A DNA stretch of 64,000 nt from a virus (lineage: Duplodnaviria; Caudoviricetes): the IMG/VR virus record IMGVR_UViG_3300014202_000529, positions 32,001-96,000 of that record; one strand, 5' to 3'. Positions 28,277-55,659 of the stretch are shown in pieces; position 1 is the first letter of the stretch; every line of letters begins with the position of its first letter. Under the pieces are notes generated by a model, which was not told the DNA's origin, ran no database searches, and was given only the letters and a program-made list of their open reading frames with translations. The translations under genes were made by a program, and so were the position numbers.

Positions 28277-28352
28277 TGGAGCCGCCAACTGGACTTGCAC
28301 CAGCCTATTCCTGCTTACAAGACAGGCGATCAACTATCTGACCCATAGCGGC
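28277..28352 (-). tRNA. tRNA-Thr(TGT)
   Basis: Cloverleaf, CCA. Confidence 0.87.
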
Positions 28353-28403
28353 ATATCTCTTTTAACACATAAACCAACAGTATCGTCATTGACGCATAGA
28401 CCA

Positions 28404-28507
28404 GTGTATTGGGTGCAGGATTTCTGGGATGGTGTGCCCAAAGCCTACCTGCGCTTCTCACGGTGCACCTACTGAGTGTGCTTGGTGTTTACACTAACCC
28501 AATACCC
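28404..28507 (-). ncRNA. Putative ~105-nt multi-stem RNA directly after the HNH stop
   Basis: GUAUUGGGU/ACCCAAUAC closing stem enclosing GCAC/GUGC and GCAGG/CCUGC arms. Confidence 0.5.
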
Positions 28508-28513
28508 CGTTTC

Positions 28514-29047: not shown

Positions 29048-29099
29048 CCTCCAGTTTCCACTACTCTAACACACCACAATTCACTTGTCAACTAGTATT

Positions 29100-29173
29100 T
29101 GGCATGGGATGCAGGAGTCGAACCTGCGCCGGCTGTTTTGGAGACAGCAATGCTACCGTAACACTTATCCCAT
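29100..29173 (-). tRNA. tRNA-Trp(CCA)
   Basis: Cloverleaf, CCA. Confidence 0.9.
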
Positions 29174-29178
29174 ATATT

Positions 29179-29252
29179 TGGTACGCCTCCACAGAATTGC
29201 ACTGTGATCTCCCGCTAATCAGGCGAGGGTACTGCTGTTGTACGAGAGGCGT
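29179..29252 (-). tRNA. tRNA-Ile(GAT)
   Basis: Cloverleaf, CCA. Confidence 0.85.
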
Positions 29253-37863: not shown

Positions 37864-38146
37864 CTAATTCCTCCAGGTCTTTATCATCAAGTTCACACCA
37901 TCGACAACCAGTACCTAGGGTTTCAGTCATACAGTGCATACAGTGACTACAAAGTGTTCCTCGGATCTCTCCTACTATCCGATGCCCCTTGAACCAACAT
38001 ACAACCAAGTTCCACTTCGTAACGATCCACTCTTGAACCTGCATTGGCACCCATGTTGGGATACCTCTATCAGTGGTCCATCCCAACCACCAATCATCCT
38101 CATCTAGCACTGCCCTGAGTCTAACACCCTTATCCATTATTGTCAA
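37856..38146 (-). CDS. Hypothetical protein
   Basis: ORF in operon. Confidence 0.45.
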   Translation of the reverse strand: MTIMDKGVRLRAVLDEDDWWLGWTTDRGIPTWVPMQVQEWIVTKWNLVVCWFKGHRIVGEIRGTLCSHCMHCMTETLGTGCRWCELDDKDLEELDD

Positions 38147-38765
38147 CTAATCCCTTTGGACTTTCATCCCCCTCAATGGTCTTCTTAAAGAACGAATTTG
38201 CAGCAACATGATAGATAACGATACCCTCTGGCTTCATGAACCCAGGAGCAGCAACGCTCCCATTAAATGCCAAATGAGCAAGGGTTACGTTAATCTCGTT
38301 GGTTGTGAACATTCCATCGTACAATACTGGTACCACATGACAACAGGCAGGTTTATTATCTTCCTTCCAACGATCTGTATTGAATAGAGAAAACCTCTTT
38401 TCCTTCAACCCATACTTACGCTGAATACCTGCGCCCCACCACTCTCCGAAATGTCTTCCTATCCCAAGACCTGTAACCAACTCATCCTTATGTTGGAGTG
38501 CCCAAGCACCAAACCCAAAATTATCACATTTCAACACATCATTCTCGACAAGCCATCGAGAGCGACTGCCCGCAAACAATTTACCATCCTCTGTGATAAG
38601 GAGTTGAGCATTGGTCCCATCAATCTTTTCAGTAACCACACAACGACGAGAAAGCCGTGGAATTTTATTGAATGTTTGAAATTCTGTCTCAGCTATTTTG
38701 CGGAGAATCATTGTATCAATTTCATCCCTAATCGGATCGTCTGTGTTCATGATGTCACCTTCCAT
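38130..38765 (-). CDS. RNA ligase (Rnl2-like adenylyltransferase)
   Basis: TEKIDGTNA (motif I), SRSRW, FGEW.G.GIQ, PEGIVI. Confidence 0.85.
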   Translation of the reverse strand: MEGDIMNTDDPIRDEIDTMILRKIAETEFQTFNKIPRLSRRCVVTEKIDGTNAQLLITEDGKLFAGSRSRWLVENDVLKCDNFGFGAWALQHKDELVTGLGIGRHFGEWWGAGIQRKYGLKEKRFSLFNTDRWKEDNKPACCHVVPVLYDGMFTTNEINVTLAHLAFNGSVAAPGFMKPEGIVIYHVAANSFFKKTIEGDESPKGLVDNNG

Positions 38766-39115
38766 CCATCAGCGGATTGCTCTTCGATAAGTAAATTTTG
38801 TGGTATCATTGATTCTTCTACTCGATCCTCCAAAGACTTCTCACCGCGAAGTTTAGCTGCCATACTACGAGCCCATCTCTGAAATGTCTCAGTCTTCCCC
38901 ATTCGCGCAAATGCTGCTTTTTTGTTTTCTAACTGGGTTCTGAATTCCCTAGATTCTCCGCGAGACCCGGATGGATGGTGAATGATACGCACACCAGACT
39001 CAACCTTATTTTGATTTTGCCCACCCTTCCCACCAGCACGAAATGTCTGGATCTCGCAATCTTTTATAGTCACGCTGAATAGGGGTGTCTTTTTGTTTTG
39101 TTGGATCTTATACAT
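38747..39115 (-). CDS. Peptidyl-tRNA hydrolase domain release factor (ArfB/YaeJ-like, GGQ)
   Basis: FRAGGKGGQNQNKVESGVRIIHHPSG..R.QLENK..A. Confidence 0.88.
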   Translation of the reverse strand: MYKIQQNKKTPLFSVTIKDCEIQTFRAGGKGGQNQNKVESGVRIIHHPSGSRGESREFRTQLENKKAAFARMGKTETFQRWARSMAAKLRGEKSLEDRVEESMIPQNLLIEEQSADGWKVTS

Positions 39116-39331
39116 TCTGCTTCTCCAGAACAATGGCATCGGGTGGTGGGGAGATACAATCAAGCACACATTTTACTTCGCCGGTAGTACGAATTCTATT
39201 CATCAATGCAATGTATTCTTTTGCATAGTGTAAGCTTTTAAATGCTTCTCTCAGAAGATTTTCCGCATTTGCTATATGTCTCTGTGCTAGTTCGTTGCAG
39301 TATGTTTCCATCATAGGCTCCATAATAAAAA

Positions 39332-39619
39332 GTGGGGTGGGGGGATTTCCAGGCCCCCCAACGTTCGTTTGGTGTTCGGTTATTTGGCTACAGAACTCAA
39401 CCCGTTCCGGTTACGGATCTCTGCGTTCTGGGGAGAGTGTCTACTCCCAAGCATTCGTCTACTGGTGTATAGGGAGCTACCGAATGCCTTGCGCTCTACC
39501 AGATTAGGATCTTCTGGTATCCTTCAGCCTTACCTCCACCATTCTACTTGTGCTTTCCCTGGTCCTTTCAGGTACTACGCCTTGACCCTGTAGAATGAGT
39601 CTATCAGCCACACCCCACA
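39332..39619 (-). ncRNA. Putative ~290-nt highly structured RNA with its own promoter
   Basis: TTGACG-17-TAGTAT at 39627-39655; GUGGGGUG/CACCCCAC termini plus U tract; many internal stems. Confidence 0.7.
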
Positions 39620-40302
39620 ATTCAACATACTACCACAGTCACTTACCCTCGTCAACTCTTATTTTCGAGTAATTTAATTTTCTCTCGCAATTCTTGAACG
39701 TACTTCACTATGATAGAGGGGACAGAATATTCCCAACACCCGATCCTGTCAAGATCACCATATCCGTATGTAATTGTTTCATCATCAATGAATGTAGATG
39801 CACAAATCTGTCTACCAGACAAGAACATCACAATACCCTGCTTCATTTTCTTATAATACTCAATCTCGTCTTTCAGAGCCTTATTCTCTTCTTTTAACTT
39901 TTTGAGTGTTGAAAGGATAGTCTCTTCTTTTAGATCTTGCAGCTCTTGTGATGTTGTCATGATACTCCCCAGAGAGTTGCAAGGGACATCCCCAACCCAA
40001 TACCGATCATGAAATAGAAAAAGTAATGTATGGTTCTCACTTCTTCTCCTTTCTATCACAGTTAACATAATATTTCATAGACAGGGTGAATATAACCCAC
40101 CAGAACCCAATTACCAAAACTGTTGCAACCATCGTGCCAAGTTCCTCGAACAACCAACCATAGCCCATCGAAAACCCTGATGCCAAAGAGACGCATACAG
40201 CTATCAGAGCACTGAGAAACATCGAACCGGCATACAACGCTGCAATTAAGAAAAGAGAAGCAAAAAGCTGTTTTGCGTAGGGAAGCTCAGGATCATATTT
40301 CA

Positions 40303-40854
40303 TCATAACCCCATCTCCTCAAGGGTTGCAATGGGTGCACCAAAAGTATCACTCACATCGATGGAAAATCCCTCCATAGCTGGAATACCACATCCAGGCA
40401 AAACGCGGTCCCATACTTCCCTTCGAGCTTCCCACTCCTCGTCAGTTACATGGTCTGGAGGATCAACGTTATTCCAATATCCATACTCTCGAATTCCTGG
40501 CAACTTTAACCATGCTTCAAACCACTTATCATGCTCTGTATATGCGATACCAATAAACCGACCCGAATCAGGAAAAATGGTTACTTTAAAATCTGTGTCT
40601 AATGCTGGTTGCCTGGTGGTCGAGGTTCGCGCTTTACTAGAAAGATCCCACCAAAGGCTATACGCTTTCCTCTTTGCCTCTGCATCCTGAACAGGAAACC
40701 CAGCAAAAGCTGCGGCGACAAACTTCTCCCTCAGCTCTATTGCTCCCTTCTTCCAATACCCATCACGAAACGTATGAACAAGATCCAAAAACGTTTCAAG
40801 ATCACCAAATGAAGTCTGGAATCCATTGTAAATCTTCGTACTCATTATGGCCAC
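40303..40854 (-). CDS. Hypothetical phage protein
   Basis: MSTKIYNGF..EYGYWNNVDPPD..EEWE.R..VWD. Confidence 0.6.
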   Translation of the reverse strand: MAIMSTKIYNGFQTSFGDLETFLDLVHTFRDGYWKKGAIELREKFVAAAFAGFPVQDAEAKRKAYSLWWDLSSKARTSTTRQPALDTDFKVTIFPDSGRFIGIAYTEHDKWFEAWLKLPGIREYGYWNNVDPPDHVTDEEWEARREVWDRVLPGCGIPAMEGFSIDVSDTFGAPIATLEEMGL

Positions 40855-41183
40855 TCCTTCAGTGCTAATGTTAGTTTCTTGGTTATTTTCATAGACTTCG
40901 AGCCAACTTCCAACACAATTGCAGTCATTTCAAAATTGACATCCGGTTCATGAAACGTGGACACCATAACCCCCAACTTCATTGCTTTTCTTGCAAGAGC
41001 TTTCAGCTCCTTTTCGTCCCACACAGAAAGGAAACAGAGGTAGTTGGAAGTCTTATACCACTTAAGATATAACTCAGGAAATTTTGCAGAGAACTCAACC
41101 AATGCATGCATGCCCTGGACTCCTTGGTACCCAGGGGAAAGATCCTTTCTTGTGATAACATATAGATGTTTCGGCTGCTTCAT
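40845..41183 (-). CDS. Pth2-like peptidyl-tRNA hydrolase fold protein
   Basis: LYVITRKDLSPG.Q.VQ..HA, F.EPD...MTAI. Confidence 0.7.
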   Translation of the reverse strand: MKQPKHLYVITRKDLSPGYQGVQGMHALVEFSAKFPELYLKWYKTSNYLCFLSVWDEKELKALARKAMKLGVMVSTFHEPDVNFEMTAIVLEVGSKSMKITKKLTLALKEWP

Positions 41184-41755
41184 TTTAAACTTTTAAACTC
41201 CGAAATGTCTCTCATTTTTAAAATGCTATGGGTCCTAATCCCATGTTTCTGTAAGAGGGTCTGTGCTGCTATAAAATCTTCAGATCTATTCACAATAACC
41301 AACGCATTGCTCACCAGTAACCCCGCTTCCCGCACTGCAGTAGCAGCTTTAATTACCGACTCCCCCGTTGTGAACACATCATCGACAATCACCGCTCGAT
41401 CCTGGGCACGTACCGCCCCCTCAATCGCCCCGATTATTCCCTTTGCACCATGTGTCCGTTGATTTTTTCTAACATAGAACAAACGGGTGTTGGTTTGATC
41501 GGAAATGGATTGTGCAACCGATATCGCCCCAGACTCTAACCCACCAACACAATCAACCGAAAGGTCCCTCAGAAGCCATGCCCCCATTTCCCCAACCAAT
41601 TTTCTTGCATATGGGTATGATAGTAGCCTCCTGCAGTCAACGTAATATGGGCTCTCCTCACCAGAAGACAACAGAAAAGGATGAATGTGGTCTTCTTTGT
41701 ATGAATCAGTTTTATAAAACAGATCTATTAACATGGACTTATAGGTATCGTTCAT
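41180..41755 (-). CDS. pyrE: Orotate phosphoribosyltransferase
   Basis: FLLSSG..SPYYVDCR, GGLESGA, VRK..R.HG, VIVDDVFTTGES. Confidence 0.9.
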   Translation of the reverse strand: MNDTYKSMLIDLFYKTDSYKEDHIHPFLLSSGEESPYYVDCRRLLSYPYARKLVGEMGAWLLRDLSVDCVGGLESGAISVAQSISDQTNTRLFYVRKNQRTHGAKGIIGAIEGAVRAQDRAVIVDDVFTTGESVIKAATAVREAGLLVSNALVIVNRSEDFIAAQTLLQKHGIRTHSILKMRDISEFKSLK

Positions 41756-44288: not shown

Positions 44289-46608
44289 TCACGCTCAACG
44301 TTCCTTTGGTTTGCTTATATTCCTCAATGTTCTTTCGATATATCTCTGCAGCCACCCTCATCAGGTTCTCGTTAATGTGTGGTCTTTTCGTCAGATCCAA
44401 CATCACCATTTCATAGTTATGTTGAATCGCATCCTCTAGAGCATCTTTCAAGTATGACAGCGGATCTCTCCCCGCTGGAATATCAATTTCAATGGTGTGC
44501 TTCACGAATCCTTTTTTACTCATCGACTCTTATTCCCCCAATCCGACAAGTACATAGATGAACTCACATCAATATTGTTTTGATAACAGTATCTCTTTAA
44601 TGCAAGCATAAATCCATCAACATTCGGTGCTGTTTGATCACAGATACTCAACATTTTCATTTCTAACCCAGAGTCCTTGCCGATTACCTTGGTCGCTCCG
44701 CGCTCACTTGGTGCATATTCCACAACTGCCACCATGCTCATATCGAGCTTCTTTATTTTCTCACCGAGTGCAAGGAGAACTGGTGCAATTTCTTCGTCGT
44801 AAATCTGTTCTTTGGTTCGTTCTTGTTCCATGTTATTCACCCATATAGATATTCAGTTCGTTCCACCTGACTACCAAACCATGCTTCAAATAACAGCTCT
44901 GGTTTATTCTCTTCGACCCATTCAACTGTCTCATCATCCGCTTCTTCTTGGGTGTCAGTAAACACCATCCAAGAAATATGCACATCATCCTCTTCACCCG
45001 CCACTTCAAACTCTACCTCTCGACCGGTCTGGTTCGTCGTAATCATAATGTATCTTTCTCCTTGAGGAATGGGTACCGAGCTTCCAGTTCCCTCAGATCG
45101 TTTGCTGCGTCACTCACACCATGCCAATCTCTCATTTGTGCCTTCGCGTATAGATACTCGATAAGAGTTTTTCGTATTCTCACCGCGTCCGTTTTAACCA
45201 TTCTTTTCCGCTCGCAACGTTCGCATGATCTTGCGCAACCAACAAAATTGTGAAAACGACAACCGATTACACAGTTCCATTGTTCTGCTCCTTTTTGAGG
45301 TTTTCGAGGACTAACTCAGTAAAATAGATGGATACCCCAGTCAGTGCCACCCGTACATTTTCCCTTGCATCGACCACCTGTGAGAACTTTTCGAAGTTTG
45401 GTTGAAACTGCTCATCAACCAGTTTATCTAACAGCTCTCTTGCTTCAGATAAATGGTTCATCGCTTGCATCACAAGTTGATCATGTCGCATTGTTAAATC
45501 CATTCTATTGTGATGGTCAATTTGTCGTTATGCCCGCATTCCTCACCATGAGAAATCAGCTTAGTGACAATGTGACCGATGGACTTCCCCCATGACTTAT
45601 CGGCAAAATCCTTCTGCTCATTCCCCTCTCGATCACTGTTGAATGTGACTCTAAACATCTCGATTCCCCCTTTGTTGTTCAATCATTACGATATAACCTT
45701 ATCAAAGGGGAATTGGTTTGTCAAATGGAAAATACTCTATGTAAATCAATGAGTTATGGTATGTGGTAAAGGTGAGTTTACCAAATGGTGGGGAAATCGA
45801 TTCCAGTGAACTATAGTTGACCACTATCCACCCAAATTTTCTGGGTCCACGAATTTCTTTTCTTCCGACTCTAACAACCATACACCAAATCTCGCTGCTT
45901 CTGCCTTGCCTAAAATGATTTCATCCTGCCAAGGATATCCCTTAGTAAGTATTCTCCAAATGTGTTGCAACCGGTATTTCCATGCCAGTTTACCCCTACC
46001 GCGAGGTACGTAGACTGACATATACACTTCTCCATCGTCACGATCCCGGCAAACGTGAATCATTTCAGCAAAACATTCACAGCGAATAAAATACTCGTCC
46101 ATAGCTTCTCACTTTCTGAAAAAGGAACTCATAAAATATAGCTTCTTGAAAGTTTTCGCCTTCGCCGCTTTCCATCCCTCATTATATTCATCTGAACGAA
46201 TGCCACGAATAGATTCTGCGAGGCAATCTTGCAACTGCTTGGTCAACAACTCAGCGTACCATTCTGTTCCACATTCCCAATAAAAATACATCACATTACC
46301 GTTGTGCATTTTGGGGTTCGCTTGGATCTTTACTTTGGTTCCTTCTTGCATAAAACTAATCATCGTTGCATCCTCTCCTTCTCTTCTTGGTGGCAGATAT
46401 ACAACCCATATTCTGCCATCAACCCCAACATAACTGCTAACGCGAGTCCTGGGGTCAGTGATTGCAGCCAACTGATATCAAGAACTCCAAATCCCTTTAA
46501 GAGCACCAAAATTACAGTGACCACGTTAACAGGAACGATAGCGCGAAATGCCCAAGAATCTTTCGTTTGCGGGACATCAACTTGCATGGTGCCTCCTAAA
46601 TTAGATGA

Positions 46609-46767
46609 TTAGTTCGGAACAACTATCGTTGCAGATATATGCACATTATCATCGAGTTCCAATTGCGCGGCGCGCTCCAGGGTCTTGAAGGGTTGTTCCT
46701 TTGTTCCCGGATTATTGTCGTTCCCATCATATGAATTTACGTAGTAGGTAGTTGTAAAGCTTGACAT
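46609..46767 (-). CDS. Small protein matching the N-terminal motif of beta-helix enzymes (52 aa)
   Basis: Manual translation TTYYVNSYDGNDNNPGTKEQPFKTLERA. Confidence 0.55.
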   Translation of the reverse strand: MSSFTTTYYVNSYDGNDNNPGTKEQPFKTLERAAQLELDDNVHISATIVVPN

Positions 46768-46778
46768 ATTCCCCCCGA

Positions 46779-47462
46779 TTAAAAATGAAGTCCCAACTCA
46801 ATGCCACTATATGCTCCGTCTCTGAACGTGCTGTCTCTCTGATATCCACCCTTAAGATTTACATTCACTGGACCCACAGGAACACCAACGACCGGTCCAG
46901 TTTGAACTGCATAATATCCTGCATTACCCATTGCCACAACATCCATACCCGCAGATATATATTCACCAGTTCGGTACATACTCCGAATGCGTCCCCAGAA
47001 AAAATTGTCCATTGTCACATAGTTCAGCATTCCCTGTACACTAATTCGTTCCCCCCAATGACCAGCTTCTAGCTGCACAAATGCCCCAGCTCGATTATGG
47101 TCCGAATTGTTGGAATCGACCCTACGACCCGATGCACCAATCATTGCCGCAAATGCATACGATTGTATTTTCTTTTCCAATCCTATTCCTAGGTTCATGA
47201 ACTGGACATCTGTATGGAGTGTTTGTCCACCTTTGTCATGCTCACCATATCCAAATCCACCAGTCAATCCTTGAATAAACACTTGCTCTGATAGATGTGT
47301 TCGAGCGCCTAGGTAACCAAAATACTGCTTATACATGTCACTCTGAAACCCAGTGAACACATCCCCGGCAAGAACAACACTAGGTTGAAGAAGAATCAAT
47401 AATATCACACTTAGGATGATATTCATGGGTGCTGTGTCCTTCTTCATTAGATTTCGTTTCAT
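46779..47462 (-). CDS. Outer-membrane beta-barrel, cellulose biosynthesis BcsS-like
   Basis: Signal peptide, alternating beta strands, WGRIR, G..GY...Q.G, C-terminal GAYSGIELGLHF. Confidence 0.6.
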   Translation of the reverse strand: MKRNLMKKDTAPMNIILSVILLILLQPSVVLAGDVFTGFQSDMYKQYFGYLGARTHLSEQVFIQGLTGGFGYGEHDKGGQTLHTDVQFMNLGIGLEKKIQSYAFAAMIGASGRRVDSNNSDHNRAGAFVQLEAGHWGERISVQGMLNYVTMDNFFWGRIRSMYRTGEYISAGMDVVAMGNAGYYAVQTGPVVGVPVGPVNVNLKGGYQRDSTFRDGAYSGIELGLHF

Positions 47463-50265
47463 CCATCTCTAAAATAGAATGCTCACCTGGTAACAGAACC
47501 TCTGGATTCCTGTTATTATGCCGCAGAGTCACCATGAAGACTTTTCCTCTCCCTTTTTAAAAGGGTCTGTTGGCACTGTGTAATCTTATTTTCCGCTATT
47601 TCTCGACTCTTCGCCCGCTGCATCATTTCGCAGGTCTCTTTGCTTCCATAGTCATAATACATGACTCCACCCTGTGGTGTGACTACAGCGAACCACCAAA
47701 TGAATAGAATAAGTCTTAATCCCACTCTTCTCTCATAGCTTCCTCATATGAACGTATGTAAATAATTAACCTTTTTAGTGGGGTGTAGGTTTTCCATTTT
47801 TCTGCATGCCCGGAAGCGTAGTTCCTCCAATCATATACCCGACTAATCTTTCTCCTCGTAAAATCGGTCTTCAGAAGTTCCCGATCACTGAGGTTGGGAA
47901 CACCAGGAAATTCTGCTGCTATCTCGTCTCGGCTATACACAATAGGTACCTCCATCGCTAATCATCCTCATGGTATGTGTTCAGTGGATCAGCCGACACA
48001 ATCCTCATACAACTTAATTTATTATCTCGCACAGCATCATAGATCTGTTTATACGGATGATCCATCGATGTCTTGTCAACATCAACGGTCCCCTGGAATA
48101 CTACATGCCAGGTTTCCTTCACTAGATCACACCCAACCGCTTTAAAGTTAATGCAAAACACAACAATCCACCGAAAAACGGCAGTATCTTAAACAGGGCA
48201 ACAGACCCGAAATTTCTTGGTGTGGTTATCACAAATGCCAACCCAGTCATAAACACTGCGGCATAACCAAGAGCAAATGTCTCAATCATGATCTCTCCTC
48301 CAATACGTTCTTGGCACCTTCTGCATATTTTAAAAGTGCGTCAGTTACACCATCAAGACGAGCTTCTAGCTCTCCAACTTTCCTCTTAAGGGCTTCAATA
48401 TCCTGCAGAGCATCTGAAATTCTTGAATCTAGGTGTAATGTGGGTTTCATAATATCTCCATGATACCAAACTCCCTGGCGCCTGTCAAGTCTTCTTCAAT
48501 TCCACAGATAATCTTAGAGTCTTGGTGTCGTATCCCCTCTTCTCAAGTTCCTCAATAAACGAAGGGTCAAAATCCCAAGGAAATTCACCAGGTTTCCTAT
48601 CACCAAACTTTGGGTACATTCTCTTAGAGAAGAGCACATTGGATGCTAGATGCCCATCCGGTCTGGATGGATAGCTAATGAAAAAATCATTCTCCTTTTT
48701 GCTCCATCGGACAAGAAGCTTTTTTCTATTGATCCTCACAGAATCCCCCACTTCTGCAACCATCGAATAATCCTAAATTCCAACACATCCATTACACTGG
48801 GCTCCTCAAAACTCTTATCAAAAACATTCACTCGGCAGGTTGTAAAATGTTCACCGCGTATCGTACACCCGCAACATTTTTTCATAGTGCTCCTACCAGT
48901 CAGTTAAGGTTTCAAACTCCCCAGTAACCAAATCCTTCATAATTTTTAGGGGTACACCAGTCACATGCAGATCATTGTCATATTCATAGAGAATATGTGC
49001 GATACCACTATCCTCTTCTAAATCAACCCCATCAACCCACGATACAGGAGTATTAAAAGAATCATAAAACGACCACGACCCCATTCCTTGGGTATAACAC
49101 ACCAACTCTGGATATTTCAATAGGATATTCTTCGCTTCTTGTTTGATATACTCCAACACCAAAACAGTCTGCTTCTTCTGCAAAGCATCAACCTTATCCT
49201 GAATGCTCTTTATTTTCTTATTTGTGTCGCTGTATTCTTTTGCATCGATGTCCATAACATCCTCCAAATGGGTGAGGGGGAAACTGCCGTCATGTTACGA
49301 TTCAATTTTTTCATCCGATATGGTTTCAACGCTTCTACGGGCTTAGTCATGTTATGATGCATGAGATTGCCCTCCACTCCACCACATCAGAAGGAAGCAT
49401 CAAGTCTTGGATGAAGTGTCCTGAGAGTCTTTTAGGTGTTGCCTCCATTCCAAAACAACTTCAGAACCGTCCCCCTCACTTTTCCTTACAGTCCCAACCG
49501 GTTACGTAAAATGACCACACCACCAACAAACCCATGCACCAGAACATACAAGAACCCAAGAGCAACCATAAACTCGATCAGTGCTGTTGCAAACATAACA
49601 CCCCCTCAACCATTTAAAAATGCCCACACCTTCACCCTCATGGGCATAAACTTCCACACATACGGAAGACATATGAAATCGACCAGTAGTTCCTTCATGA
49701 TGGCAACGGGACTCCATTAAAAACGAACTTGTACAGTGGTCTACCATGTGTAGACTTCATGTCATGAAGGGTTACTGTACATTTCCCCTTCCAGGTCTTC
49801 GAACACTCAACAGTCACTCGCTCACCCTTCTCTGGGAGAACTTTGTGCCCTGCTATTTGTTTAAGAATCCTCTGCGCTTGCTCTGCAGTGTAGTATGTTG
49901 TCATCAAATCACCATGAACATTGGTGCATTCCAGGTTGCAACAACCGCATTGTCAACCTGTCGAATCACCTTGGCTTTGTTTACCGCAGGAAACACCCCA
50001 AGAGATTGAGGAATGTGCGCATTGCAACCACCAGACTTCATCGACTCATGATAGGCGAAAACCCACTCCCCCAAAGATTTTTCCGTTGCTTTCCCCTTCC
50101 AGCACATCTGAACCTTCACACCCTGGCTATCAACAAATTCCATTCGGTATTTTGGAGTAATAGAGCGTCCCATCAGTTCACCCCTTTGTTATGTTTGTCA
50201 TTCATCATGATCTGAGTATAACAAAGTCTGCCAGAATGTCAAGTCCTCAAATATATACTTTCTGG

Positions 50266-50285
50266 GTGTATCATTTTAGATACAC
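50266..50285. repeat. 20-bp palindrome, copy 2
   Basis: GTGTATC-ATTTTA-GATACAC, 23 bp upstream of -35 (50237-50242). Confidence 0.85.
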
Positions 50286-51348
50286 TAGTTCCTAGGTTCG
50301 ATTGGATAATGCTGCTGGATCTCGTTCCACAACCGATGATAAAGCTTGTCATAATGCGATTGTGCCGCAGCCAGGACCGCTTTTGCCTCGGTCACCTGAA
50401 CAAGAAGACTATGCACTTCCGTCCTCGTCATCTTATCCATAATCTTCATCCTCCAGGGTATCTCGTTCCGTCAATTGCTCTAGTAAGTCATTGATCGCTT
50501 CTTCTTCGGTCTCACCGGTTCCGCATTCCTTATTAATGCTGTCTGGTGCACCATCATAGGTGTTCTCGTCAATCGCATTCCACCCAAAGTATGGTTGGTA
50601 TGTGGTTTTGATTTTAATCGTTGCCACTGTTATTGCTCCTTTAAGATCTCCTCGATCATTGCATTCCGACTTTCAACCAGCTTCTTCGCCCCCTCTGCTG
50701 CATCCTTCGTCATACTTGCTGTCGTATACATGATGAACATCACTATACCAAGCACCACCCCCGTAATAATCATCCTCATGATTTCACCCCTTTGTTTTGT
50801 TGGTCATTCATCATGATTTAAGTCTACCACACCCGTCCAAATTGTCAAGTCTTATGTGGGTCCCCATATTGAGCATCAAACTGCTTAAAATGATCATCAC
50901 AGATCGTATGACTCACCCGCGTATCGTCTAGGGGTTCCTTGTCCCCCATATCCGCAGGTTTCCCCTCTTGTAGACACCATGCGCATACGAGCTTCATTGA
51001 TTCCCCCTTCGACGGATCTCTTTCGCTTCCGTCACCACCTTGTCAAGTTCCCTCATGAAATGGATTGGAGTCGCGTTATCGGCAACATCAATCAGCTTAT
51101 CCACAAGTGTTCGTAATTGTTCACATTCACAGGGTTCCATTGGCCCTCACTTTTGGGCATTCTTTAGGCTTATCCCCACCAACTCTTTTGGTACCCTCAG
51201 TGCTGCAAAGAACACATCATCTGCTGCATCCGCTTCAACCAAACGCTCTACCCGCTTGACCAACCGTTCACAGTCTAGAACCAATTCTTTTATTTTCGTC
51301 ATATTCATCATGATTTAAGTCTACCACATCCCACCGGTCTGTCAAGCG

Positions 51349-51768
51349 TCATGTTTTGGTGGGTGTATCTTTTTGGATACAGTTACCATTTGCTGCCTTT
51401 CGAGCACTATCAATCCAGTGTTGCAAGTTGTTCAGAGTCGCGTAGTCTTTCGGTAGTGCATTATTATTCATCAACTCAATAATCTGCAGCATCCCGAACA
51501 CATGAGCCTTCAAATGTTCAACCTCATGTTTTGTATCAGTGTCACTAAAATGGCGATTTAGTAAATCGGTATCCTCCGGTCTAGATTTCAATTTAAGACC
51601 TATACTTTCCCCATACGCAACCCATTTGCCTTGCTTGAGAGCACAAAACCCAGCACTCACTGCAGTATGGTTGTAACTCTCTTTTGGAATCGTCCTATGT
51701 GGAATGGTCTCAGGAAATATAATCGGCACCAGATCATCAAACTCAGTCTTCACCACCACATATTTCAT
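51349..51768 (-). CDS. Hypothetical protein coupled to bcsA
   Basis: Overlapping start/stop; PIIFP..I.H, VSAGFC, YGES..L.LKSRPED. Confidence 0.6.
   Translation of the reverse strand: MKYVVVKTEFDDLVPIIFPETIPHRTIPKESYNHTAVSAGFCALKQGKWVAYGESIGLKLKSRPEDTDLLNRHFSDTDTKHEVEHLKAHVFGMLQIIELMNNNALPKDYATLNNLQHWIDSARKAANGNCIQKDTPTKT
51363..51382. repeat. 20-bp palindrome, copy 3
   Basis: GTGTATC-TTTTTG-GATACAG, 17 bp upstream of -35 (51340-51345). Confidence 0.8.
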
Positions 51769-53723
51769 AACAACTCCCTTCGTTGTTGGTCCTGTGCCAC
51801 ATGCGTTTCAATTTGCTGCACTGCAGAGGTTTCTAACTCTGGGTAAACTTTCAACCCGCGTTCATCTTCCCACACTCCACTATGACCAAACAGTAGAGTG
51901 ATAAGTTGACCTTCCACATGTTTCATATCCTCCGAATCAAATTTCACCGACACCCGCATACCATCTAGACGAACAATGGTTGCCATGAGCACAAATACTA
52001 TACCCACATCTTCATCATTAAATGCAACCGGAACCCGCTTCCCCACCAAGAATTTTGGTGACATTGATGTCAGGGTTATTGCTGCACCGGTCATGCTCAA
52101 ATCATACACCTTTCCATATTCTGCACCTATCAGAGCGGGAATGTTATGCAACCCCTGCCGCACATGACGGAATGCACCGCGGCGATGCTCTGTTGGTTGA
52201 GCTGTCCAAAGAGCTGCAAGTACCATCCCCAGATTGATAGTTGCCCAGACCATCGCATATGGAACTCCAAGATGATAATCCCCACTCTGCAATTCAAATG
52301 CACCCAGGATTATACCCAACCCCAACAAACAAGCAAGCACCATCAAAGGATACGTGGGTGCCCACATGCTCGCCCCATGATCCTGCTGCTCACCCTTTGG
52401 GGTAACTTCAAACACTCGTTCTTTTCGAGGAAAACAAATCGACAATGCTGCTCGACACAGACTTGGTGCCATCGCTACTTCATAGATATCAGAAGCAAAC
52501 GGATTGCGCATCCTAGCAACAGAAAGATGCATGGTGGCAATGAGTGCCAGGTACACTGCACCAAATTGTATCACTAGGTGCCACAGATCGGTTGCAACTG
52601 GGGTGATTCCAAACAAAAGCATTGTTAGTGGTGCAACCAACCCGATCATACGAGGAAACCCAAACATGAAGTAGAACATTGATCCAAGATAATCGATCCG
52701 CTGTTGCCACGTCAACCCGCGCTTCAATAACGGATTGTCACCAAAGAACACTTGCATACATCCAATCGCCCACCGCTTCCGCTGCTTCACATACCCATGA
52801 AACGTTTCCGGCATGAGTCCTGCTGATAAGGGTTGATTCACATGGACCGATTTCCATCCCCGCGAATGGAGTTCCATGCTTGTATGGATATCCTCGGTAA
52901 TCGTCTGAGTCATGAAGCCACCAATTTCCAATAGAGCCGATCGGCGCACCAACCCACCAGACCCCGCGAAGAATGCGCTATTGTGTGCATTTCTCCCAGG
53001 TTGCAGGACAGAGAAAAAGAGTTCCTGTTCGTTCTGAATCTTCCGCGATAGCCCAGATTGAAAGATGTCAGGATTATAGAAGTGTTGTGAAGTTTGCACC
53101 ATCGCCACTTTAGGATCACTAAAATGAGGTAGTGTCTCCTGCACAAAGTTTTCTGTGGGTACATGATCCACGTCAAATATTGCAATCACATCCCCAGATG
53201 TTCGAGGTAATGCCGCATTAATATTCCCAGCTTTCGCATGTTGGGGAGTATTGGTCCGGGTGTGATAGCGACACCCCAATTCCTCTGCCAACAGTCGCAC
53301 TGATTCGCGCTTTCCATCATCCAAAATGTGAACAGTGATGGAGTACCGACCCCGCTGCATCAAACAACCATAAACAGTTTGTCTCAGGAGTTCAATGGGT
53401 TCTTGGACCACACAGACAAACATATCCACACTAAGAGGTTCAACCTTGTCCGGTTTGGGGGTTGTATGAAACCCATGCCAAGTTTGAAACGCAAAAAATC
53501 CAAACTGAATGGTCCCATATAACTCTGCACCCCACAAAACAATACCTGCAACCAATGACCACGTTTCATCAGTGGGGATTGTTTCAGTGACACGCCAGAC
53601 CATGTAGCGCACATAGAGCAGACCGCTCAACATCAATGCGACTTTTCGTTGTTTTGATACCACTGCGGCAAAAATTACCATCAACCAAATACCCGTAACT
53701 ACCAAACTCGTCATCATTTTCAC
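51765..53723 (-). CDS. bcsA: Cellulose synthase catalytic subunit BcsA-like (GT2 plus PilZ)
   Basis: LDDG, HAKAGNIN, FDVDH, QTSQHFYNPD, FFAGS, TEDI, QRKRW; TM helices; PilZ RRGAFR and DLSMTG. Confidence 0.92.
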   Translation of the reverse strand: MKMMTSLVVTGIWLMVIFAAVVSKQRKVALMLSGLLYVRYMVWRVTETIPTDETWSLVAGIVLWGAELYGTIQFGFFAFQTWHGFHTTPKPDKVEPLSVDMFVCVVQEPIELLRQTVYGCLMQRGRYSITVHILDDGKRESVRLLAEELGCRYHTRTNTPQHAKAGNINAALPRTSGDVIAIFDVDHVPTENFVQETLPHFSDPKVAMVQTSQHFYNPDIFQSGLSRKIQNEQELFFSVLQPGRNAHNSAFFAGSGGLVRRSALLEIGGFMTQTITEDIHTSMELHSRGWKSVHVNQPLSAGLMPETFHGYVKQRKRWAIGCMQVFFGDNPLLKRGLTWQQRIDYLGSMFYFMFGFPRMIGLVAPLTMLLFGITPVATDLWHLVIQFGAVYLALIATMHLSVARMRNPFASDIYEVAMAPSLCRAALSICFPRKERVFEVTPKGEQQDHGASMWAPTYPLMVLACLLGLGIILGAFELQSGDYHLGVPYAMVWATINLGMVLAALWTAQPTEHRRGAFRHVRQGLHNIPALIGAEYGKVYDLSMTGAAITLTSMSPKFLVGKRVPVAFNDEDVGIVFVLMATIVRLDGMRVSVKFDSEDMKHVEGQLITLLFGHSGVWEDERGLKVYPELETSAVQQIETHVAQDQQRRELL

Positions 53724-53940
53724 TAACCCTTTCTAAGATTTCCTAATGGTTGCCGATTTACTTGGGTTCGATGTAACAGGGTCTTCCTGCTGCTTCGTAC
53801 TCAATCATTCGTAGTTTCGCTTCTTGGTAGGTTACACACTCGACAATCTTCTCTTCAACGCACAATACCCACTTCGCAGTCTTCCCAGCGATTTTTTTCA
53901 TGTTCTCCCCCTTGGTTTTCTTGTTCATCATCATGATCTA

Positions 53941-53993
53941 AGAATACCATATCAACGGATAGTGTCAAGGGGGGTGTATCTAAAAGGATACAC
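53941..53993 (-). promoter_or_regulatory. Promoter upstream of bcsA with palindrome copy 4 (53974-53993)
   Basis: GTGTATC-TAAAAG-GATACAC 5 bp upstream of TTGACA-16-TATTCT; leader AGATCATGATGATGAACAAGAAAACCAAGGGGGA. Confidence 0.85.
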
Positions 53994-54465
53994 TATGTTT
54001 TCGCATCCAGTAGTGGGTGATAAGAGCAGATAGTTCCTCACGGTAAGACAGTGCGTCATGTGTATCGAATACCACATGGATCTGTCTCATACTGTAGGTT
54101 TGTGTTTTGGTGAGCCAAGCATTCATGCTGATAATCGTGACTTCATCATCAGATTTCAGTTTGATCCTCACATACGGACCCTGATGCAATGGTGAAATGG
54201 GTTCATCGAGAGTAATTCCTGCTCCCATGAGACTCATGTTTGTAATGATGCCATGATACCCATTGACCGATACAGAAATACCGGACACGTCATACCGACC
54301 ATGTAATTTAGAGCGTCGGTCTAGATCTGCTGCTTTTCTACGAGAATCGCGCACACTGAGCACCGCGATAGAGCAGAACACCACAACCAACATAGCAATC
54401 ACTATCATCCACATCACACCGTAGATTTGTGTCACAAGTTCCATACGTCCCCCTAATAGATCCAT
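53980..54465 (-). CDS. Membrane-anchored PilZ-domain protein
   Basis: N-terminal TM; DRRSKLHGR and TNMSLMGAG PilZ-like motifs; similar to the BcsA C terminus. Confidence 0.7.
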   Translation of the reverse strand: MDLLGGRMELVTQIYGVMWMIVIAMLVVVFCSIAVLSVRDSRRKAADLDRRSKLHGRYDVSGISVSVNGYHGIITNMSLMGAGITLDEPISPLHQGPYVRIKLKSDDEVTIISMNAWLTKTQTYSMRQIHVVFDTHDALSYREELSALITHYWMRKHSVSF

Positions 54466-54977
54466 TCGGAAATATTCACAACTGCAGATAACTTACTCTC
54501 CGTCTTCACCAACACATGCACCGGCACCCCAATCCTCCGTAGCACTCGAACCACTGGCGCAATCGTCACAAAATACGCATACTCCACACCCAGCGATTTC
54601 AGATCCCTATGGATACTCTTCAACAGCATCGAGACGATAGGAAACCCATCATGACGCACAAATGGATCAACACAGAGACGCGAAACTTCCGCGCTGCTCT
54701 TTTTATTGAATGGGGTGGGCAGCACATCAAGAAAATCTTTTTCGATCATATATTGGTGTTCTTCATGAATCACGCGAGCATACGCGATTGGTGCATCATC
54801 CATATACACCGCGTAGGGCATACACTGTGCATCATATTCATCCTGGTCCTGTCGGTCTGGGGTCTCCGGTATCCAGTGCAATTCTTCAGCGAAAACTTTG
54901 TAGCGCAACCGCATTGCGGCAGGACTCTGCACACCAGACACCACGCGATACATAGGACCGTGCCAGTTAGGTCTCAT
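54453..54977 (-). CDS. LuxI-like acyl-homoserine-lactone synthase (GNAT fold)
   Basis: RLRYKVFAEELHW, DQDEYD, AYARV, EVSRLCV; start MRPNW overlaps the stop of an upstream Cys-rich ORF. Confidence 0.75.
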   Translation of the reverse strand: MRPNWHGPMYRVVSGVQSPAAMRLRYKVFAEELHWIPETPDRQDQDEYDAQCMPYAVYMDDAPIAYARVIHEEHQYMIEKDFLDVLPTPFNKKSSAEVSRLCVDPFVRHDGFPIVSMLLKSIHRDLKSLGVEYAYFVTIAPVVRVLRRIGVPVHVLVKTESKLSAVVNISEWIY

Positions 54978-55131
54978 CTTGACATCGTTTCCTACAGTCA
55001 TCACAACATGCACACATTGTGCCCAGATCGGCATACAGATCTTCTTTGTATGGACAAGTGTGTAGCGTCTTCGAACGGGGATTATCACAATCCCTGGCAT
55101 GCAGACCTGGACACTTCTTTTCTTTCCTCAT
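54967..55131 (-). CDS. Small Cys-rich protein (54 aa)
   Basis: Manual translation ...HTCPYKEDLYADLGTMCACCDDCRKRCQDET. Confidence 0.55.
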   Translation of the reverse strand: MRKEKKCPGLHARDCDNPRSKTLHTCPYKEDLYADLGTMCACCDDCRKRCQDET

Positions 55132-55311
55132 GACTCAGTACTCCACAACGGATGCTGTATACACATACGCATCCTTCCCCTGTGCTTGCGCTTGTTTCAC
55201 ATCACGTTCCGCAAGTGACTTGGACTCGTATTCCTCTTGCATGAGTCCGTTCACAATGACTCGGTAGACTGTGCGGTAGTTTGCTTTTTGCATTCTCATT
55301 GTTGAATACTC

Positions 55312-55659
55312 CTATCGAAGGTAGTTCCACCGTCTTGCATGCAACTCCCTCGGATTCACTGTTGCAATGTTCCCGATATCCGCTTTCTTTTTCTTGTTGT
55401 AATCCGGCACTCCATATCCTTTAATATTGTACAATTCCCCTGTTGCACTTTCAACCAGAAATGCACCAGACCCACCACAATCCAGGTATGCGAACTTTTT
55501 CCCCACCTTCTTCAAGTGCCATCTATCATGGGGATGTGTGAAACCCCTTCGAGCAAAATCCTCAGCTTCCAGCTTGTTCAACTCAACCGCAAGCGCCTCG
55601 ATCTTGGTTGTCAGATGTTCCATGATTTCCCCCTTGGTTTTGTTGTTCATCATCATCAT
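55312..55659 (-). CDS. Early hypothetical protein
   Basis: First gene after promoter 55666-55693; likely start MEHLTT. Confidence 0.6.
   Translation of the reverse strand: MMMMNNKTKGEIMEHLTTKIEALAVELNKLEAEDFARRGFTHPHDRWHLKKVGKKFAYLDCGGSGAFLVESATGELYNIKGYGVPDYNKKKKADIGNIATVNPRELHARRWNYLR

What the first reader, a model, noticed from the sequence alone, without database searches (positions are those of the whole stretch)
46609..47462. BcsS-like outer-membrane beta-barrel 4 kb from bcsA: a possible export partner
Seen: signal peptide, amphipathic beta strands and a terminal Phe (ELGLHF). It resembles the BcsS family found in some bcs operons (from memory). It is followed by a 52-aa ORF that looks like only the N-terminal cap of a beta-helix glycanase. 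Inference: this completes a minimal phage-encoded polysaccharide synthesis and export route, and it implies a diderm host.
Basis: partly seen in the sequence, partly recalled or inferred. Interest (0 to 1): 0.7.

Follow-up and report, generated by a model that had tools for sequence, protein, structure and literature searches.

The report
Phage BcsS-type outer-membrane barrel gene
A large T4-like phage, most likely of nitrite-oxidising Nitrospira, carries a Nitrospira-derived outer-membrane barrel protein of the poorly understood BcsS family together with the cellulose-synthase type that BcsS accompanies in the bacteria, which suggests the two genes work as a pair.

Summary
ORF 46779-47462 (minus strand, 227 aa) has a signal peptide, 12 amphipathic strands and a C-terminal Phe. 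It passes the Pfam BcsS threshold (27.2 bits, cut-off 24) and folds confidently as a 12-stranded outer-membrane barrel (pLDDT 92).

Its nearest cellular relatives (36-42% identity) are almost all from Nitrospira: 79 of 80 genome loci. In 62 of the 71 loci with at least 3 kb upstream, bcsA lies directly upstream on the same strand. The phage bcsA, 4.3 kb upstream, is 50% identical to this BcsS-linked Nitrospira synthase and 35% identical to the second, BcsC-linked type.

Phage-type BcsS proteins form a clade nested inside the Nitrospira-type proteins. A syntenic 2.7-kb fragment of a related phage also carries the gene.

The 52-aa ORF is a real beta-helix N-cap fragment. It is unique to this phage and is not part of the conserved module.

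An export or channel role is plausible, because the barrel resembles KdgM/NanC oligosaccharide porins, but it is untested. The gene is a new phage-borne member of a known family whose function is unknown. A diderm host, Nitrospira, is supported.

The parts
46779..47462 (-). bcsS-like gene: 227-aa precursor of a 12-stranded outer-membrane beta-barrel (an alternative start at Met6 gives the 222-aa form held in the databases)
   Evidence: ORF. Pfam PF17036 27.2 bits, cut-off 24, covering profile positions 12-206 of 207. AF2 pLDDT 92.2 with 12 strands. 12-stranded barrels are the top structural matches. Atlas BcsS clusters.
47367..47462 (-). predicted Sec signal peptide (residues 1-32, cleavage after V-L-A)
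   Evidence: By inspection. Helix 13-25 lies ahead of the barrel in the model. The mature N-terminus AGDxFTGFQ is conserved. Inferred; no signal-peptide predictor was run.
46609..46767 (-). 52-aa ORF holding only the N-terminal cap motif of a right-handed beta-helix (DUF1565/pectate-lyase-like) protein. It has its own G-rich ribosome-binding site. It is probably a gene remnant or a mini-protein.
   Evidence: HMM matches. DNA. Absent from the syntenic relative L082. No such motif in 97 BcsS loci. No second copy in the phage. No longer homologue found.
51765..53723 (-). bcsA-like processive GT2 synthase with a C-terminal PilZ domain (652 aa). QRKRW, TED, HAKAGN, RxxxR and DxSxxG motifs are present.
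   Evidence: Pfam GT2, Cellulose_synt and PilZ. TIGR03030 479 bits, below its cut-off of 699. 50% identical to the BcsS-linked BcsA of N. moscoviensis and 35% to the GH8-fused one. Motifs read from the translation; the motif names are recalled.
51349..51768 (-). 139-aa ORF whose ATG overlaps the bcsA stop codon (ATGA). It belongs to a phage family of unknown function.
   Evidence: Coordinates. No Pfam family. Atlas neighbours are viral hypothetical proteins with scores of 0.85 or less.
53980..54465 (-). 161-aa ORF with a weak PilZ-like match, upstream of bcsA
   Evidence: PF07238 20.8 bits, below the cut-off of 22.5. Not found in 5 Nitrospira genomes with this query.
53941..53968 (-). sigma-70-like promoter match (TTGACA-16-TATTCT, TG present) in the gap ahead of bcsA
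   Evidence: This is a consensus match only. The total number of matches in the region was not above the shuffles (17 found, 20.8 expected).
48460..48488 (-). sigma-70-like promoter match (TTGACA-17-TATCAT, TG present). It is the nearest strong match upstream of bcsS on the coding strand.
   Evidence: Consensus match only.
46360..46587 (-). 75-aa membrane-protein gene. In the related phage fragment it follows bcsS directly, so it serves as a synteny marker.
   Evidence: 64% identical to L082 945-1154.

Best explanation
ORF 46779-47462 encodes a BcsS-family protein, a small 12-stranded outer-membrane beta-barrel. A T4-like phage lineage captured it from Nitrospira, and it serves as the outer-membrane component for the phage's own BcsA-type, c-di-GMP-gated beta-glucan (cellulose-like) synthase.

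Proposed course:
1. The region is read early by the host RNA polymerase.
2. BcsA inserts into the inner membrane and polymerises a glucan when host c-di-GMP binds its PilZ domain. The phage has no GGDEF cyclase of its own.
3. BcsS is exported through Sec and folded into the outer membrane through its C-terminal Phe signal.
4. There it gives the single glucan chain a passage or docking site, much as KdgM/NanC barrels pass linear oligosaccharides.
5. The infected Nitrospira cell becomes coated with polymer. This would keep it in the microcolony or mask receptors against other phages.

Shown: the gene, the family membership, the fold, the linkage to bcsA in the donor bacteria, and the Nitrospira origin.
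Inferred: expression timing, the product, the channel role and the benefit to the phage.

My odds: BcsS-family outer-membrane barrel about 0.9; works together with BcsA about 0.7; is itself the glucan conduit about 0.4.
For: Family:
- PF17036 27.2 bits, cut-off 24, nearly full-length match.
- 35 of the 40 aligned relatives match PF17036 at E <= 0.01, best 9.4e-31.
- Atlas: 17 of 30 feature hits are BcsS clusters (score 0.97). TM 0.91 to a BcsS cluster whose commonest phylum is Nitrospirota.
- One 39%-identical relative is named BcsS by NCBI.

Fold:
- pLDDT 92.2, 12 strands.
- Best VIA matches are all 12-stranded barrels: BrkA beta-domain Z 18.1, KdgM with oligogalacturonate Z 17.6, FapF 16.7, PcoB 16.6, NanC 16.0, VhGalP 15.9.
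- After BcsS, KdgM clusters are among the next named families in the Atlas feature search (first at rank 18).
- The inferred lumen-facing residues are more conserved than the lipid-facing ones (0.63 against 0.48). They hold the family's invariant Arg, Glu, Gln, Tyr, Trp and Gly residues.

Linkage:
- bcsA lies directly upstream on the same strand in 62 of 71 genome loci that have at least 3 kb upstream, and in 9 of the 17 metagenome loci.
- Among 151 sampled Nitrospiraceae genomes, 23 have both BcsS and the roughly 760-aa BcsA type, 3 have BcsS only, 1 has that BcsA only, and none of the 9 genomes with only the second BcsA type has BcsS.
- In N. moscoviensis the second synthase (GH8-GT2-PilZ, 1432 aa) is followed by a TPR/BcsC-like protein. 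BcsS therefore occupies the position that an outer-membrane component holds in the other locus.
- BcsB was found in 0 of 5 Nitrospira genomes, with the E. coli control positive.
- The phage BcsA is of the BcsS-linked type (50% against 35% identity).

Retention in phages:
- The phage-type BcsS proteins (window; P0058 and P0120; P0059 and P0121) form a starred clade nested in the Nitrospira-type clade. Holding the Nitrospira-type rows apart from them is rejected, p-AU 0.0028.
- L082 carries the gene at the same position beside five shared phage genes.
- P0121 (BcsS-like) and P0123 (BcsA-like, 52% identical) are both recorded on a Logan contig of 150,228 bp.
- The gene's G+C content is 43.6%, close to the phage's 42.8%.
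Against: - No experiment links any BcsS to export. The review passages I read only list it among optional components of type I bcs operons.
- A 12-stranded barrel need not be open.
- Neither protein has an obvious periplasm-spanning part (no BcsB, no TPR), so how a chain would reach the barrel is unexplained.
- In the phage the two genes are 4.3 kb apart, with 16 small ORFs of no known family between them, not adjacent.
- 9 of the 71 Nitrospira loci have bcsS without an adjacent bcsA, and 3 of the 26 BcsS-bearing genomes show no such bcsA, although these are incomplete MAGs.
- The 163,432-bp contig that holds the closest relative, P0058, has no BcsA-like protein among the 120 best hits.
- 0 of 5 IMG/VR relatives picked by capsid similarity carry either gene, though only one is at least 90% complete.
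- NCBIfam gave no family for the protein. N. moscoviensis BcsS itself gave no Pfam match at E <= 0.001.
- The synthase scores below the TIGR03030 cut-off, so the product may not be cellulose.
Confidence: 0.55

Rival explanations
1. BcsS works with BcsA but is not the conduit. It would be an outer-membrane anchor, organiser or sensor that holds or nucleates the glucan at the cell surface, or that stabilises the envelope during secretion, while the chain leaves by another route.
For: The same linkage data as for the best explanation apply. The conserved lumen residues (Arg, Glu, Gln, Tyr, Trp) would also fit a closed barrel held by an internal polar network. Several of the best structural matches are not open channels (autotransporter and intimin domains, LpxR, OMPLA).
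Against: The type 1 locus of Nitrospira and the phage offer no other outer-membrane candidate. The closest non-BcsS families by language-model features, and the second-best structural match, are KdgM-type oligosaccharide porins. The strands are linked by short turns in the model, which leaves little surface-exposed mass for an anchoring role (inference).
Confidence: 0.25
2. It is a stand-alone phage outer-membrane protein, in the manner of Lom-, Bor- or OmpX-like morons. It would change the infected cell's surface to exclude other phages or alter permeability, and would be functionally unrelated to the bcsA 4.3 kb away.
For: Phage-encoded outer-membrane barrels are common: 26 BFVD models match at E <= 0.001. 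The two genes are separated by 16 small ORFs. The closest relative's 163-kb contig shows no BcsA-like protein among the listed hits.
Against: The protein belongs specifically to BcsS, and no Pfam match to Ail/Lom or general porin families appeared at E <= 1. It has 12 strands, whereas Ail/OmpX-type barrels have 8 (strand number of that family recalled). The phage also kept exactly the BcsA type that BcsS accompanies in Nitrospira. A second phage-size contig appears to hold both genes.
Confidence: 0.12
3. It is a decaying passenger with no function, carried along from a host DNA capture, as the neighbouring 52-aa beta-helix fragment seems to be.
For: The adjacent 52-aa ORF looks like a remnant. 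The branches of the phage clade are long.
Against: The frame is intact, with a signal peptide and a C-terminal Phe. All 42 columns that are invariant in the 17-row alignment of the phage protein with 16 Nitrospira-type proteins are, by definition, kept in the phage protein. The model is confident. The gene is conserved at 35-49% identity among at least three phage-type lineages and is fully adapted to phage base composition. All of this indicates long retention under selection.
Confidence: 0.03

Closest known systems
BcsS (Pfam PF17036, CBP_BcsS), an optional component of type I bcs operons
   Same: Passes the family's gathering score over nearly the whole profile. Similar size, signal peptide and beta-barrel character. 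Encoded near a bcsA.
   Different: Phage-borne. 4.3 kb from bcsA rather than inside an operon with bcsB, bcsC, bcsZ and bcsD. The score is only 3 bits above the threshold. The family has no established function (review passages).
Nitrospira bcsA-bcsS pair (for example N. moscoviensis NSP M-1, locus L016: CBS-domain gene, bcsA of 761 aa, bcsS)
   Same: These are the closest cellular relatives of both phage genes: BcsS 36-42% and BcsA 45-50%. Same BcsA type. The phage BcsS clade is nested in this group.
   Different: The phage BcsS lacks three short loop segments, including the Cys-Cys pair of the Nitrospira type. The phage BcsA lacks about 110 C-terminal residues. The genes are not adjacent. 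There is no CBS-domain gene.
KdgM/NanC family of 12-stranded oligosaccharide-specific porins (PF06178)
   Same: Same strand number and size. KdgM Z 17.6 (rmsd 3.0, 167 residues aligned), NanC Z 16.0, VhGalP Z 15.9. KdgM clusters are among the next named families after BcsS in the Atlas feature search (first at rank 18). They provide a working model for passing a single linear glycan chain.
   Different: No sequence-profile match to PF06178 at E <= 1 and 6-11% identity in the structural alignments. Those porins take up acidic oligosaccharides rather than export a polymer.
BcsC C-terminal porin (PF05420), the established cellulose outer-membrane channel
   Same: An outer-membrane barrel encoded beside a cellulose synthase. 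In N. moscoviensis a TPR/BcsC-like gene follows the other synthase at the position bcsS holds here.
   Different: BcsC is a 16-stranded barrel (recalled) with a long TPR periplasmic arm. The structural match is only Z 8.4-8.5, there is no profile match, and BcsS has no periplasmic domain.
Phage cellulose-synthase-like auxiliary genes (for example Synechococcus phage S-CBWM1 'putative cellulose synthase')
   Same: A GT2 cellulose-synthase-like gene in a large tailed phage. It is 33.8% identical over 55% of the phage BcsA.
   Different: That match covers only the catalytic half. No BcsS-like gene was found in any of the 50,697 phage records.

Membership tests
BcsS (PF17036) | Profile HMM score at or above the curated gathering score, over most of the profile | tested here: met
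   27.2 bits against a cut-off of 24, E 3.7e-6, profile positions 12-206 of 207. 27.1 bits in the six-frame search of the phage genome.
BcsS (PF17036) | Relatives found by sequence search are themselves BcsS | tested here: met
   35 of 40 aligned relatives match PF17036 at E <= 0.01. 9 of the 57 hits carry a precomputed PF17036, and one is named BcsS by NCBI. Atlas BcsS clusters by features and by structure. However, N. moscoviensis BcsS gave no Pfam match at E <= 0.001.
BcsS (PF17036) | Secreted small outer-membrane beta-barrel (signal peptide, C-terminal aromatic residue) | tested here: met
   Sequence. 12-strand model with pLDDT 92.2. 12-stranded outer-membrane barrels are the top matches. 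The signal peptide is judged by inspection only.
BcsS (PF17036) | Encoded with cellulose synthase genes | tested here: met
   Same strand, 4,302 nt downstream of bcsA in the phage. Adjacent in 62 of 71 Nitrospira loci. The phage genes are not contiguous.
BcsS (PF17036) | Match to an NCBIfam naming model | tested here: inconclusive
   No NCBIfam family at E <= 1. I do not know whether that library holds a BcsS model.
BcsS (PF17036) | Role in cellulose biogenesis | not testable with these tools
   No function is given in the passages read. Needs genetics or biochemistry.
KdgM/NanC porins (PF06178) | Profile HMM match | tested here: not met
   Only PF17036 and a sub-threshold YfaZ match were reported at E <= 1. 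The fold is shared (Z 17.6 and 16.0).
YfaZ (PF07437) | Profile HMM score at or above the gathering score | tested here: not met
   16.9 bits against a cut-off of 23, covering residues 127-223 only.
Ail/Lom/OmpX-type 8-stranded barrels | Profile match and 8 strands | tested here: not met
   No such Pfam family at E <= 1. The model has 12 strands. The strand number of that family is recalled.
BcsC porin (PF05420) | Profile match, 16-stranded barrel with a TPR arm | tested here: not met
   No Pfam match. 227 aa with no periplasmic domain. Structural Z only 8.4-8.5.
BcsA, UDP-forming cellulose synthase (TIGR03030), for the partner gene | Equivalog score at or above the cut-off; GT2 plus PilZ architecture | tested here: inconclusive
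   Architecture met. TIGR03030 479.3 bits, below the cut-off of 699.1. The product is therefore not certain to be cellulose.

The most novel reading that the evidence does not exclude
BcsA plus BcsS is a self-sufficient two-protein glucan secretion system that needs neither BcsB nor BcsC. In it, BcsS is a previously unrecognised class of 12-stranded outer-membrane polysaccharide exit channel. A lytic T4-like Nitrospira phage carries exactly this minimal pair to wrap the slowly dying host cell in cellulose-like polymer, either for retention in the nitrifying biofilm or for exclusion of other phages.
Probability: 0.3. Interest if true: 0.75.

Novelty: new member of a known kind. Interest (0 to 1): 0.55.

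Why it matters
BcsS has a family name but no known job. In this phage, which keeps little that it does not use, only two genes of the cellulose machinery are found: the synthase and BcsS. In Nitrospira the same two genes sit side by side, with no BcsB found and with a separate BcsC-like gene serving the other synthase. That points to a short, testable hypothesis for BcsS as the outer-membrane partner or exit of a minimal synthase system. It also supplies compact genes with which to test it.

The finding also gives a gene-based host link to Nitrospira for a complete 169-kb T4-like phage with 28 tRNA genes. Nitrospira are key nitrifiers in soils and water treatment that grow in matrix-embedded microcolonies. 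It suggests that phages may manipulate the matrix of nitrifying biofilms.

Tried and rejected
Phage and viral collections:
- tblastn of the BcsS-like protein against 50,697 phage records: no match.
- Megablast of 45000-54000 against the same records: no match.
- IMG/VR scans with the BcsS alignment, with P0058 and with the phage BcsA: no confirmed relative. Single-protein patterns reach close relatives only.
- PHROGs: no family for the BcsS-like protein.

Sequencing runs and earlier findings:
- Public sequencing runs for 46500-53800: none was listed, and no RNA holder was listed.

Literature:
- The Römling and Galperin 2015 review, which as I recall introduced the name BcsS, could not be read. 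The id I recalled is not held.
- A whole-word search for 'bcss' returned unrelated abbreviations.
- Searches for Nitrospira + cellulose synthase + phage (6 papers; listing only) and for cellulose synthase + bcsA + auxiliary metabolic + viral (1 paper; one passage read, which only lists bcsA among biofilm-related viral genes) gave nothing on a phage BcsS.
- The paper on soil nitrifier viruses has no occurrence of 'cellulose' or 'outer membrane'.

The 52-aa ORF:
- No longer homologue found (weak evidence).
- No second copy in the phage.
- No cap motif within the 97 BcsS loci.

Other genes and steps:
- No GGDEF domain in the phage.
- Atlas search of the 139-aa ORF coupled to bcsA: only viral hypothetical proteins, with scores under 0.9.
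- The careful BcsA tree did not finish. The quick tree has no outgroup, so it shows only that the two phage-type BcsA proteins group together on a long branch joined to an unresolved Nitrospira node.
- A complex prediction of BcsA with BcsS was not sent, because I do not claim that an inner-membrane and an outer-membrane protein touch.
- A pore-radius calculation was not possible, because model coordinates are not exposed to scripts.

Rejected readings:
- Ail/Lom-like or general porin (no profile match; 12 strands).
- The 52-aa ORF as a working glycanase (only the cap is present).
Full report
**What is there.** The window is bases 32001-96000 of a 168,789-bp virus record with direct terminal repeats, estimated complete. 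PHROGs matches to the major head protein, portal, large terminase, tail sheath, baseplate wedge proteins, UvsX-like recombinase, clamp loader and a family B DNA polymerase show a T4-like myovirus. The window holds 28 tRNA genes, and nearly all genes lie on the minus strand.

At the finding's coordinates, ORF 46779-47462 (minus strand, 227 aa) is followed after 11 nt by ORF 46609-46767 (52 aa). A bcsA-like gene (51765-53723, 652 aa) ends 4,302 nt upstream on the same strand. Sixteen small ORFs lie between the two genes, and none reaches a Pfam cut-off.

**The observation.** The protein starts with a basic stretch and a hydrophobic core, then V-L-A before the conserved mature start AGDxFTGFQ. 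It ends in ...ELGLHF. This reading of the signal peptide is by inspection.

AlphaFold2 on a 40-row alignment gives mean pLDDT 92.2, a helix at residues 13-25 and twelve strands between residues 33 and 226. Across the family, one face of 11 of the 12 strands is clearly more hydrophobic than the other.

**Family.**
- Pfam gives CBP_BcsS (PF17036) at 27.2 bits, cut-off 24, over profile positions 12-206 of 207. The only other match is a sub-threshold one to YfaZ.
- NCBIfam and PHROGs give nothing.
- A word-indexed search found 57 proteins, one of them the window's own. The rest are 36-42% identical and mostly 233 aa long. One is named BcsS from Nitrospira.
- An exhaustive HMMER search of representatives found 60 proteins at E <= 0.001. 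The best, P0058, is 49% identical.
- Of 40 aligned relatives, 35 match PF17036 at E <= 0.01.
- In the ESM Atlas, 17 of 30 feature hits are BcsS clusters (score 0.97). The best structural neighbour (TM 0.91) is a BcsS cluster whose commonest phylum is Nitrospirota.

I therefore file the protein as a BcsS-family member. The margin over the Pfam threshold is small, and the N. moscoviensis orthologue does not itself reach E 0.001 against Pfam.

**Fold.** Foldseek against the PDB gives only generic outer-membrane barrels, with TM about 0.5. The Foldseek-independent search ranks 12-stranded barrels first: BrkA autotransporter domain Z 18.1, KdgM with oligogalacturonate Z 17.6, FapF 16.7, PcoB 16.6, an intimin domain 16.5, NanC 16.0 and VhGalP 15.9. 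The 16-stranded BcsC channel scores only 8.4-8.5. After BcsS, KdgM clusters are among the next named families in the Atlas feature search (first at rank 18).

The residues that strand parity places in the lumen are more conserved than the lipid-facing ones (0.63 against 0.48). They include the family's nearly invariant Arg, Glu, Gln, Tyr, Trp and Gly residues. This fits a functional interior, but it does not distinguish an open channel from a closed barrel. I could not compute a pore radius.

**Where the relatives live.** A scan of one genome per prokaryotic species returned 80 loci, and 79 of them are titled Nitrospira, Nitrospiraceae, Nitrospirales, Nitrospirae or Nitrospirota. They include the complete genome of N. 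moscoviensis.

Of the 71 loci with at least 3 kb upstream, 62 have a bcsA homologue (40-58% identical to the phage BcsA among the rows shown, mostly 44-47%) directly upstream on the same strand. The other nine mostly have the CBS-domain gene that normally precedes bcsA sitting next to bcsS instead. In N. moscoviensis the order is CBS-domain gene, bcsA (761 aa), bcsS, then unrelated aconitase-family genes.

In a sample of 151 Nitrospiraceae genomes, 26 have BcsS and 33 have a BcsA-like protein at E <= 1e-60. The BcsA matches fall into two types:
- 24 genomes have the roughly 760-aa type (E <= 1e-170). Of these, 23 also have BcsS.
- 9 genomes have only a second type (38-40% identical, in frames of 1,045-1,244 aa). 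None of these has BcsS. One of the nine, G086, is an unpublished genome; without it the count is 8 of 8.
- Three BcsS genomes show no BcsA, and 115 genomes have neither gene.

These are incomplete MAGs and related genomes, so the counts describe an association and are not a statistical test.

In N. moscoviensis the second type is a 1,432-aa fusion of GH8, GT2 and PilZ. It is followed by a 564-aa TPR protein with a weak BcsC C-terminal match (19.9 bits, below the cut-off of 23.5). So each synthase is followed by its own outer-membrane candidate, and for the short synthase that candidate is BcsS. BcsB was found in 0 of 5 large Nitrospira genomes while the E. coli control matched. BcsC_C was above its cut-off in 0 of 5, with 2 sub-threshold hits.

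**The phage pair.** The phage BcsA has GT2 and PilZ domains. It also has the QRKRW, TED, HAKAGN, RxxxR and DxSxxG motifs, read from the translation; the motif names are recalled. It is 50% identical to the BcsS-linked N. moscoviensis synthase and 35% identical to the GH8-fused one. It scores below the TIGR03030 cut-off (479 against 699), so 'cellulose-like' is the safe term. The phage has no GGDEF domain, so any c-di-GMP would have to come from the host.

On a maximum-likelihood tree of 42 BcsS-type proteins, five phage-type rows form a starred clade (99/98): the window protein, P0058 and P0120, and P0059 and P0121. This clade sits inside a starred clade (100/98) of proteins that are 74-100% identical to Nitrospira MAG proteins. 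A tree that holds the 18 Nitrospira-type rows together without the phage clade is rejected (p-AU 0.0028). I named that group only after seeing the tree.

The branches of the phage clade are long. The gene's G+C content (43.6%) equals the phage background (42.8%), and bcsA (47.3%) is at the 90th percentile of phage ORFs. The capture is therefore old. A donor in the Nitrospira lineage is the simplest reading. The root is not inferred.

**Related phages.**
- A 2,683-bp metagenome contig (L082) encodes P0058 at the same position as in the window. It is followed by five genes that match the window's next genes in the same order (64, 34, 56, 60 and 39% identity). It is too short to show whether bcsA is present.
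- The protein collection records P0058 on a contig of 163,432 bp and P0121 on a Logan contig of 150,228 bp. The closest relative of the phage BcsA, P0123 (52% identical, 679 aa), is also from Logan with a longest contig of 150,228 bp. I read this as both genes lying on one phage-sized contig. That is an inference from equal lengths only.
- No BcsA-like protein with a 163,432-bp contig is among the 120 listed hits.
- Five IMG/VR records chosen by capsid similarity (69-94% identity; 38-96% complete) carry neither gene.
- No phage record in INPHARED has a BcsS relative. The nearest true phage BcsA-like gene, in Synechococcus phage S-CBWM1, covers only the catalytic half at 34% identity.

**The 52-aa ORF.** It carries the N-terminal cap motif of right-handed beta-helix proteins and has its own G-rich ribosome-binding site.
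- It ends after 52 residues.
- It is absent from L082, where the 78-aa membrane-protein gene starts 9 nt after bcsS.
- It has no counterpart within the 97 BcsS loci.
- It has no second copy in the phage, and no longer homologue was found.

It is a remnant or a mini-protein peculiar to this phage and not part of the bcsA-bcsS module.

**Expression signals.** The number of sigma-70-like matches in 45500-55500 is not above chance (17 against 20.8 expected). However, five of the six best matches have a perfect TTGACA, lie on the coding strand and fall in gaps between ORFs, including one just ahead of bcsA (gene ends). No T4-type late promoter motif lies in this region (the motif is recalled). This suggests early transcription by the host polymerase, but it is only a consensus match.

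**Most likely mechanism, and what is and is not shown.**
- Shown: a real gene for a BcsS-family, 12-stranded outer-membrane barrel; its derivation from the Nitrospira lineage; tight linkage of the family to one BcsA type in Nitrospira; and the presence of that same BcsA type in the phage.
- Inferred: that the two phage proteins act together; that BcsS gives the glucan its way through or onto the outer membrane; that the product is cellulose-like; and that coating the infected cell benefits the phage through biofilm retention or exclusion of other phages.
- Against a simple channel model: neither protein has a periplasm-spanning part; many 12-stranded barrels are closed; and the published texts I could read say nothing about BcsS beyond listing it.

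**Novelty.** The family is known by name, and phage cellulose-synthase-like genes are known. I found no mention of a phage BcsS, or of the Nitrospira bcsA-bcsS pair, in the searches (listings and passages only; supplements closed). I rate it a new member of a known kind. Its interest is moderate, because it offers a compact, testable hypothesis for a protein family without a function, and a gene-based host link for a complete large phage of nitrifiers.

Noticed in passing
window 54453-55100 (-): A 215-aa ORF matches Autoind_synth (PF00765) at 40.4 bits, cut-off 24, and also GNAT Acetyltransf_5. It is a LuxI-like or N-acyl amino acid synthase in a phage. It is 28-36% identical to one protein in each of 5 of 5 Nitrospira genomes. 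Its 3' end overlaps the start of the PilZ-like ORF upstream of bcsA.
   Followed up: partly
window 53980-54465 (-): A 161-aa ORF with a sub-threshold PilZ match (20.8 bits, cut-off 22.5) lies just upstream of bcsA. It is a possible extra c-di-GMP receptor. It was not found in 5 Nitrospira genomes with this query.
   Followed up: partly
window 17172-29252 (-): A cluster of 28 tRNA genes, all on the minus strand. Among them is a tRNA-Ile with a tat anticodon in an 89-nt gene, with the anticodon placed at position 30.
   Followed up: no
window 35525-37863 and 38130-41755 (-): NAD-salvage and nucleotide genes (NAPRTase/NAMPT-like, PRPP-synthetase-like), an RNA ligase, a PTH2 peptidyl-tRNA hydrolase and a phosphoribosyltransferase.
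   Followed up: no
L187 (N. moscoviensis, G006:C1:930001-946000) 5373-11271 (-): A second bcs locus: one 1,432-aa frame fuses GH8 (BcsZ-like), GT2 synthase and PilZ. It is followed by a 564-aa TPR protein with a weak BcsC C-terminal match. Genomes of the sample that have only this synthase type have no BcsS.
   Followed up: partly
L035, L039, L051, L053, L056, L057, L061, L068, L080: Nine Nitrospira-type loci have bcsS without bcsA upstream. In six of them the CBS-domain gene sits next to bcsS instead. Two are second copies in MAGs that also have a bcsA-bcsS locus (L057 with L049, L080 with L058).
   Followed up: partly
G009:C6:1166602-1167125: An extra BcsS-like copy in one Nitrospirota genome is split into two pieces with an in-frame TGA. 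It is probably a pseudogene.
   Followed up: no
window 51765-51768: The bcsA stop codon overlaps the ATG of a 139-aa ORF (ATGA), which suggests translational coupling. The ORF resembles only viral hypothetical proteins.
   Followed up: partly
P0123 (BcsA-like protein of the 150-kb contig): Its C-terminal region keeps an RxxxR motif but has E-H-S-K-P-G where the window's BcsA has D-L-S-M-T-G. The collection lists no PilZ domain for it, so c-di-GMP control may differ between the phage synthases.
   Followed up: no
window 48460-48488, 50215-50242, 50821-50848, 51318-51345, 53941-53968 (-): Five promoter-like sites with a perfect TTGACA and a TG-extended -10 element, each in a gap between small minus-strand ORFs. 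The pattern resembles an early-gene region of a T4-like phage.
   Followed up: no
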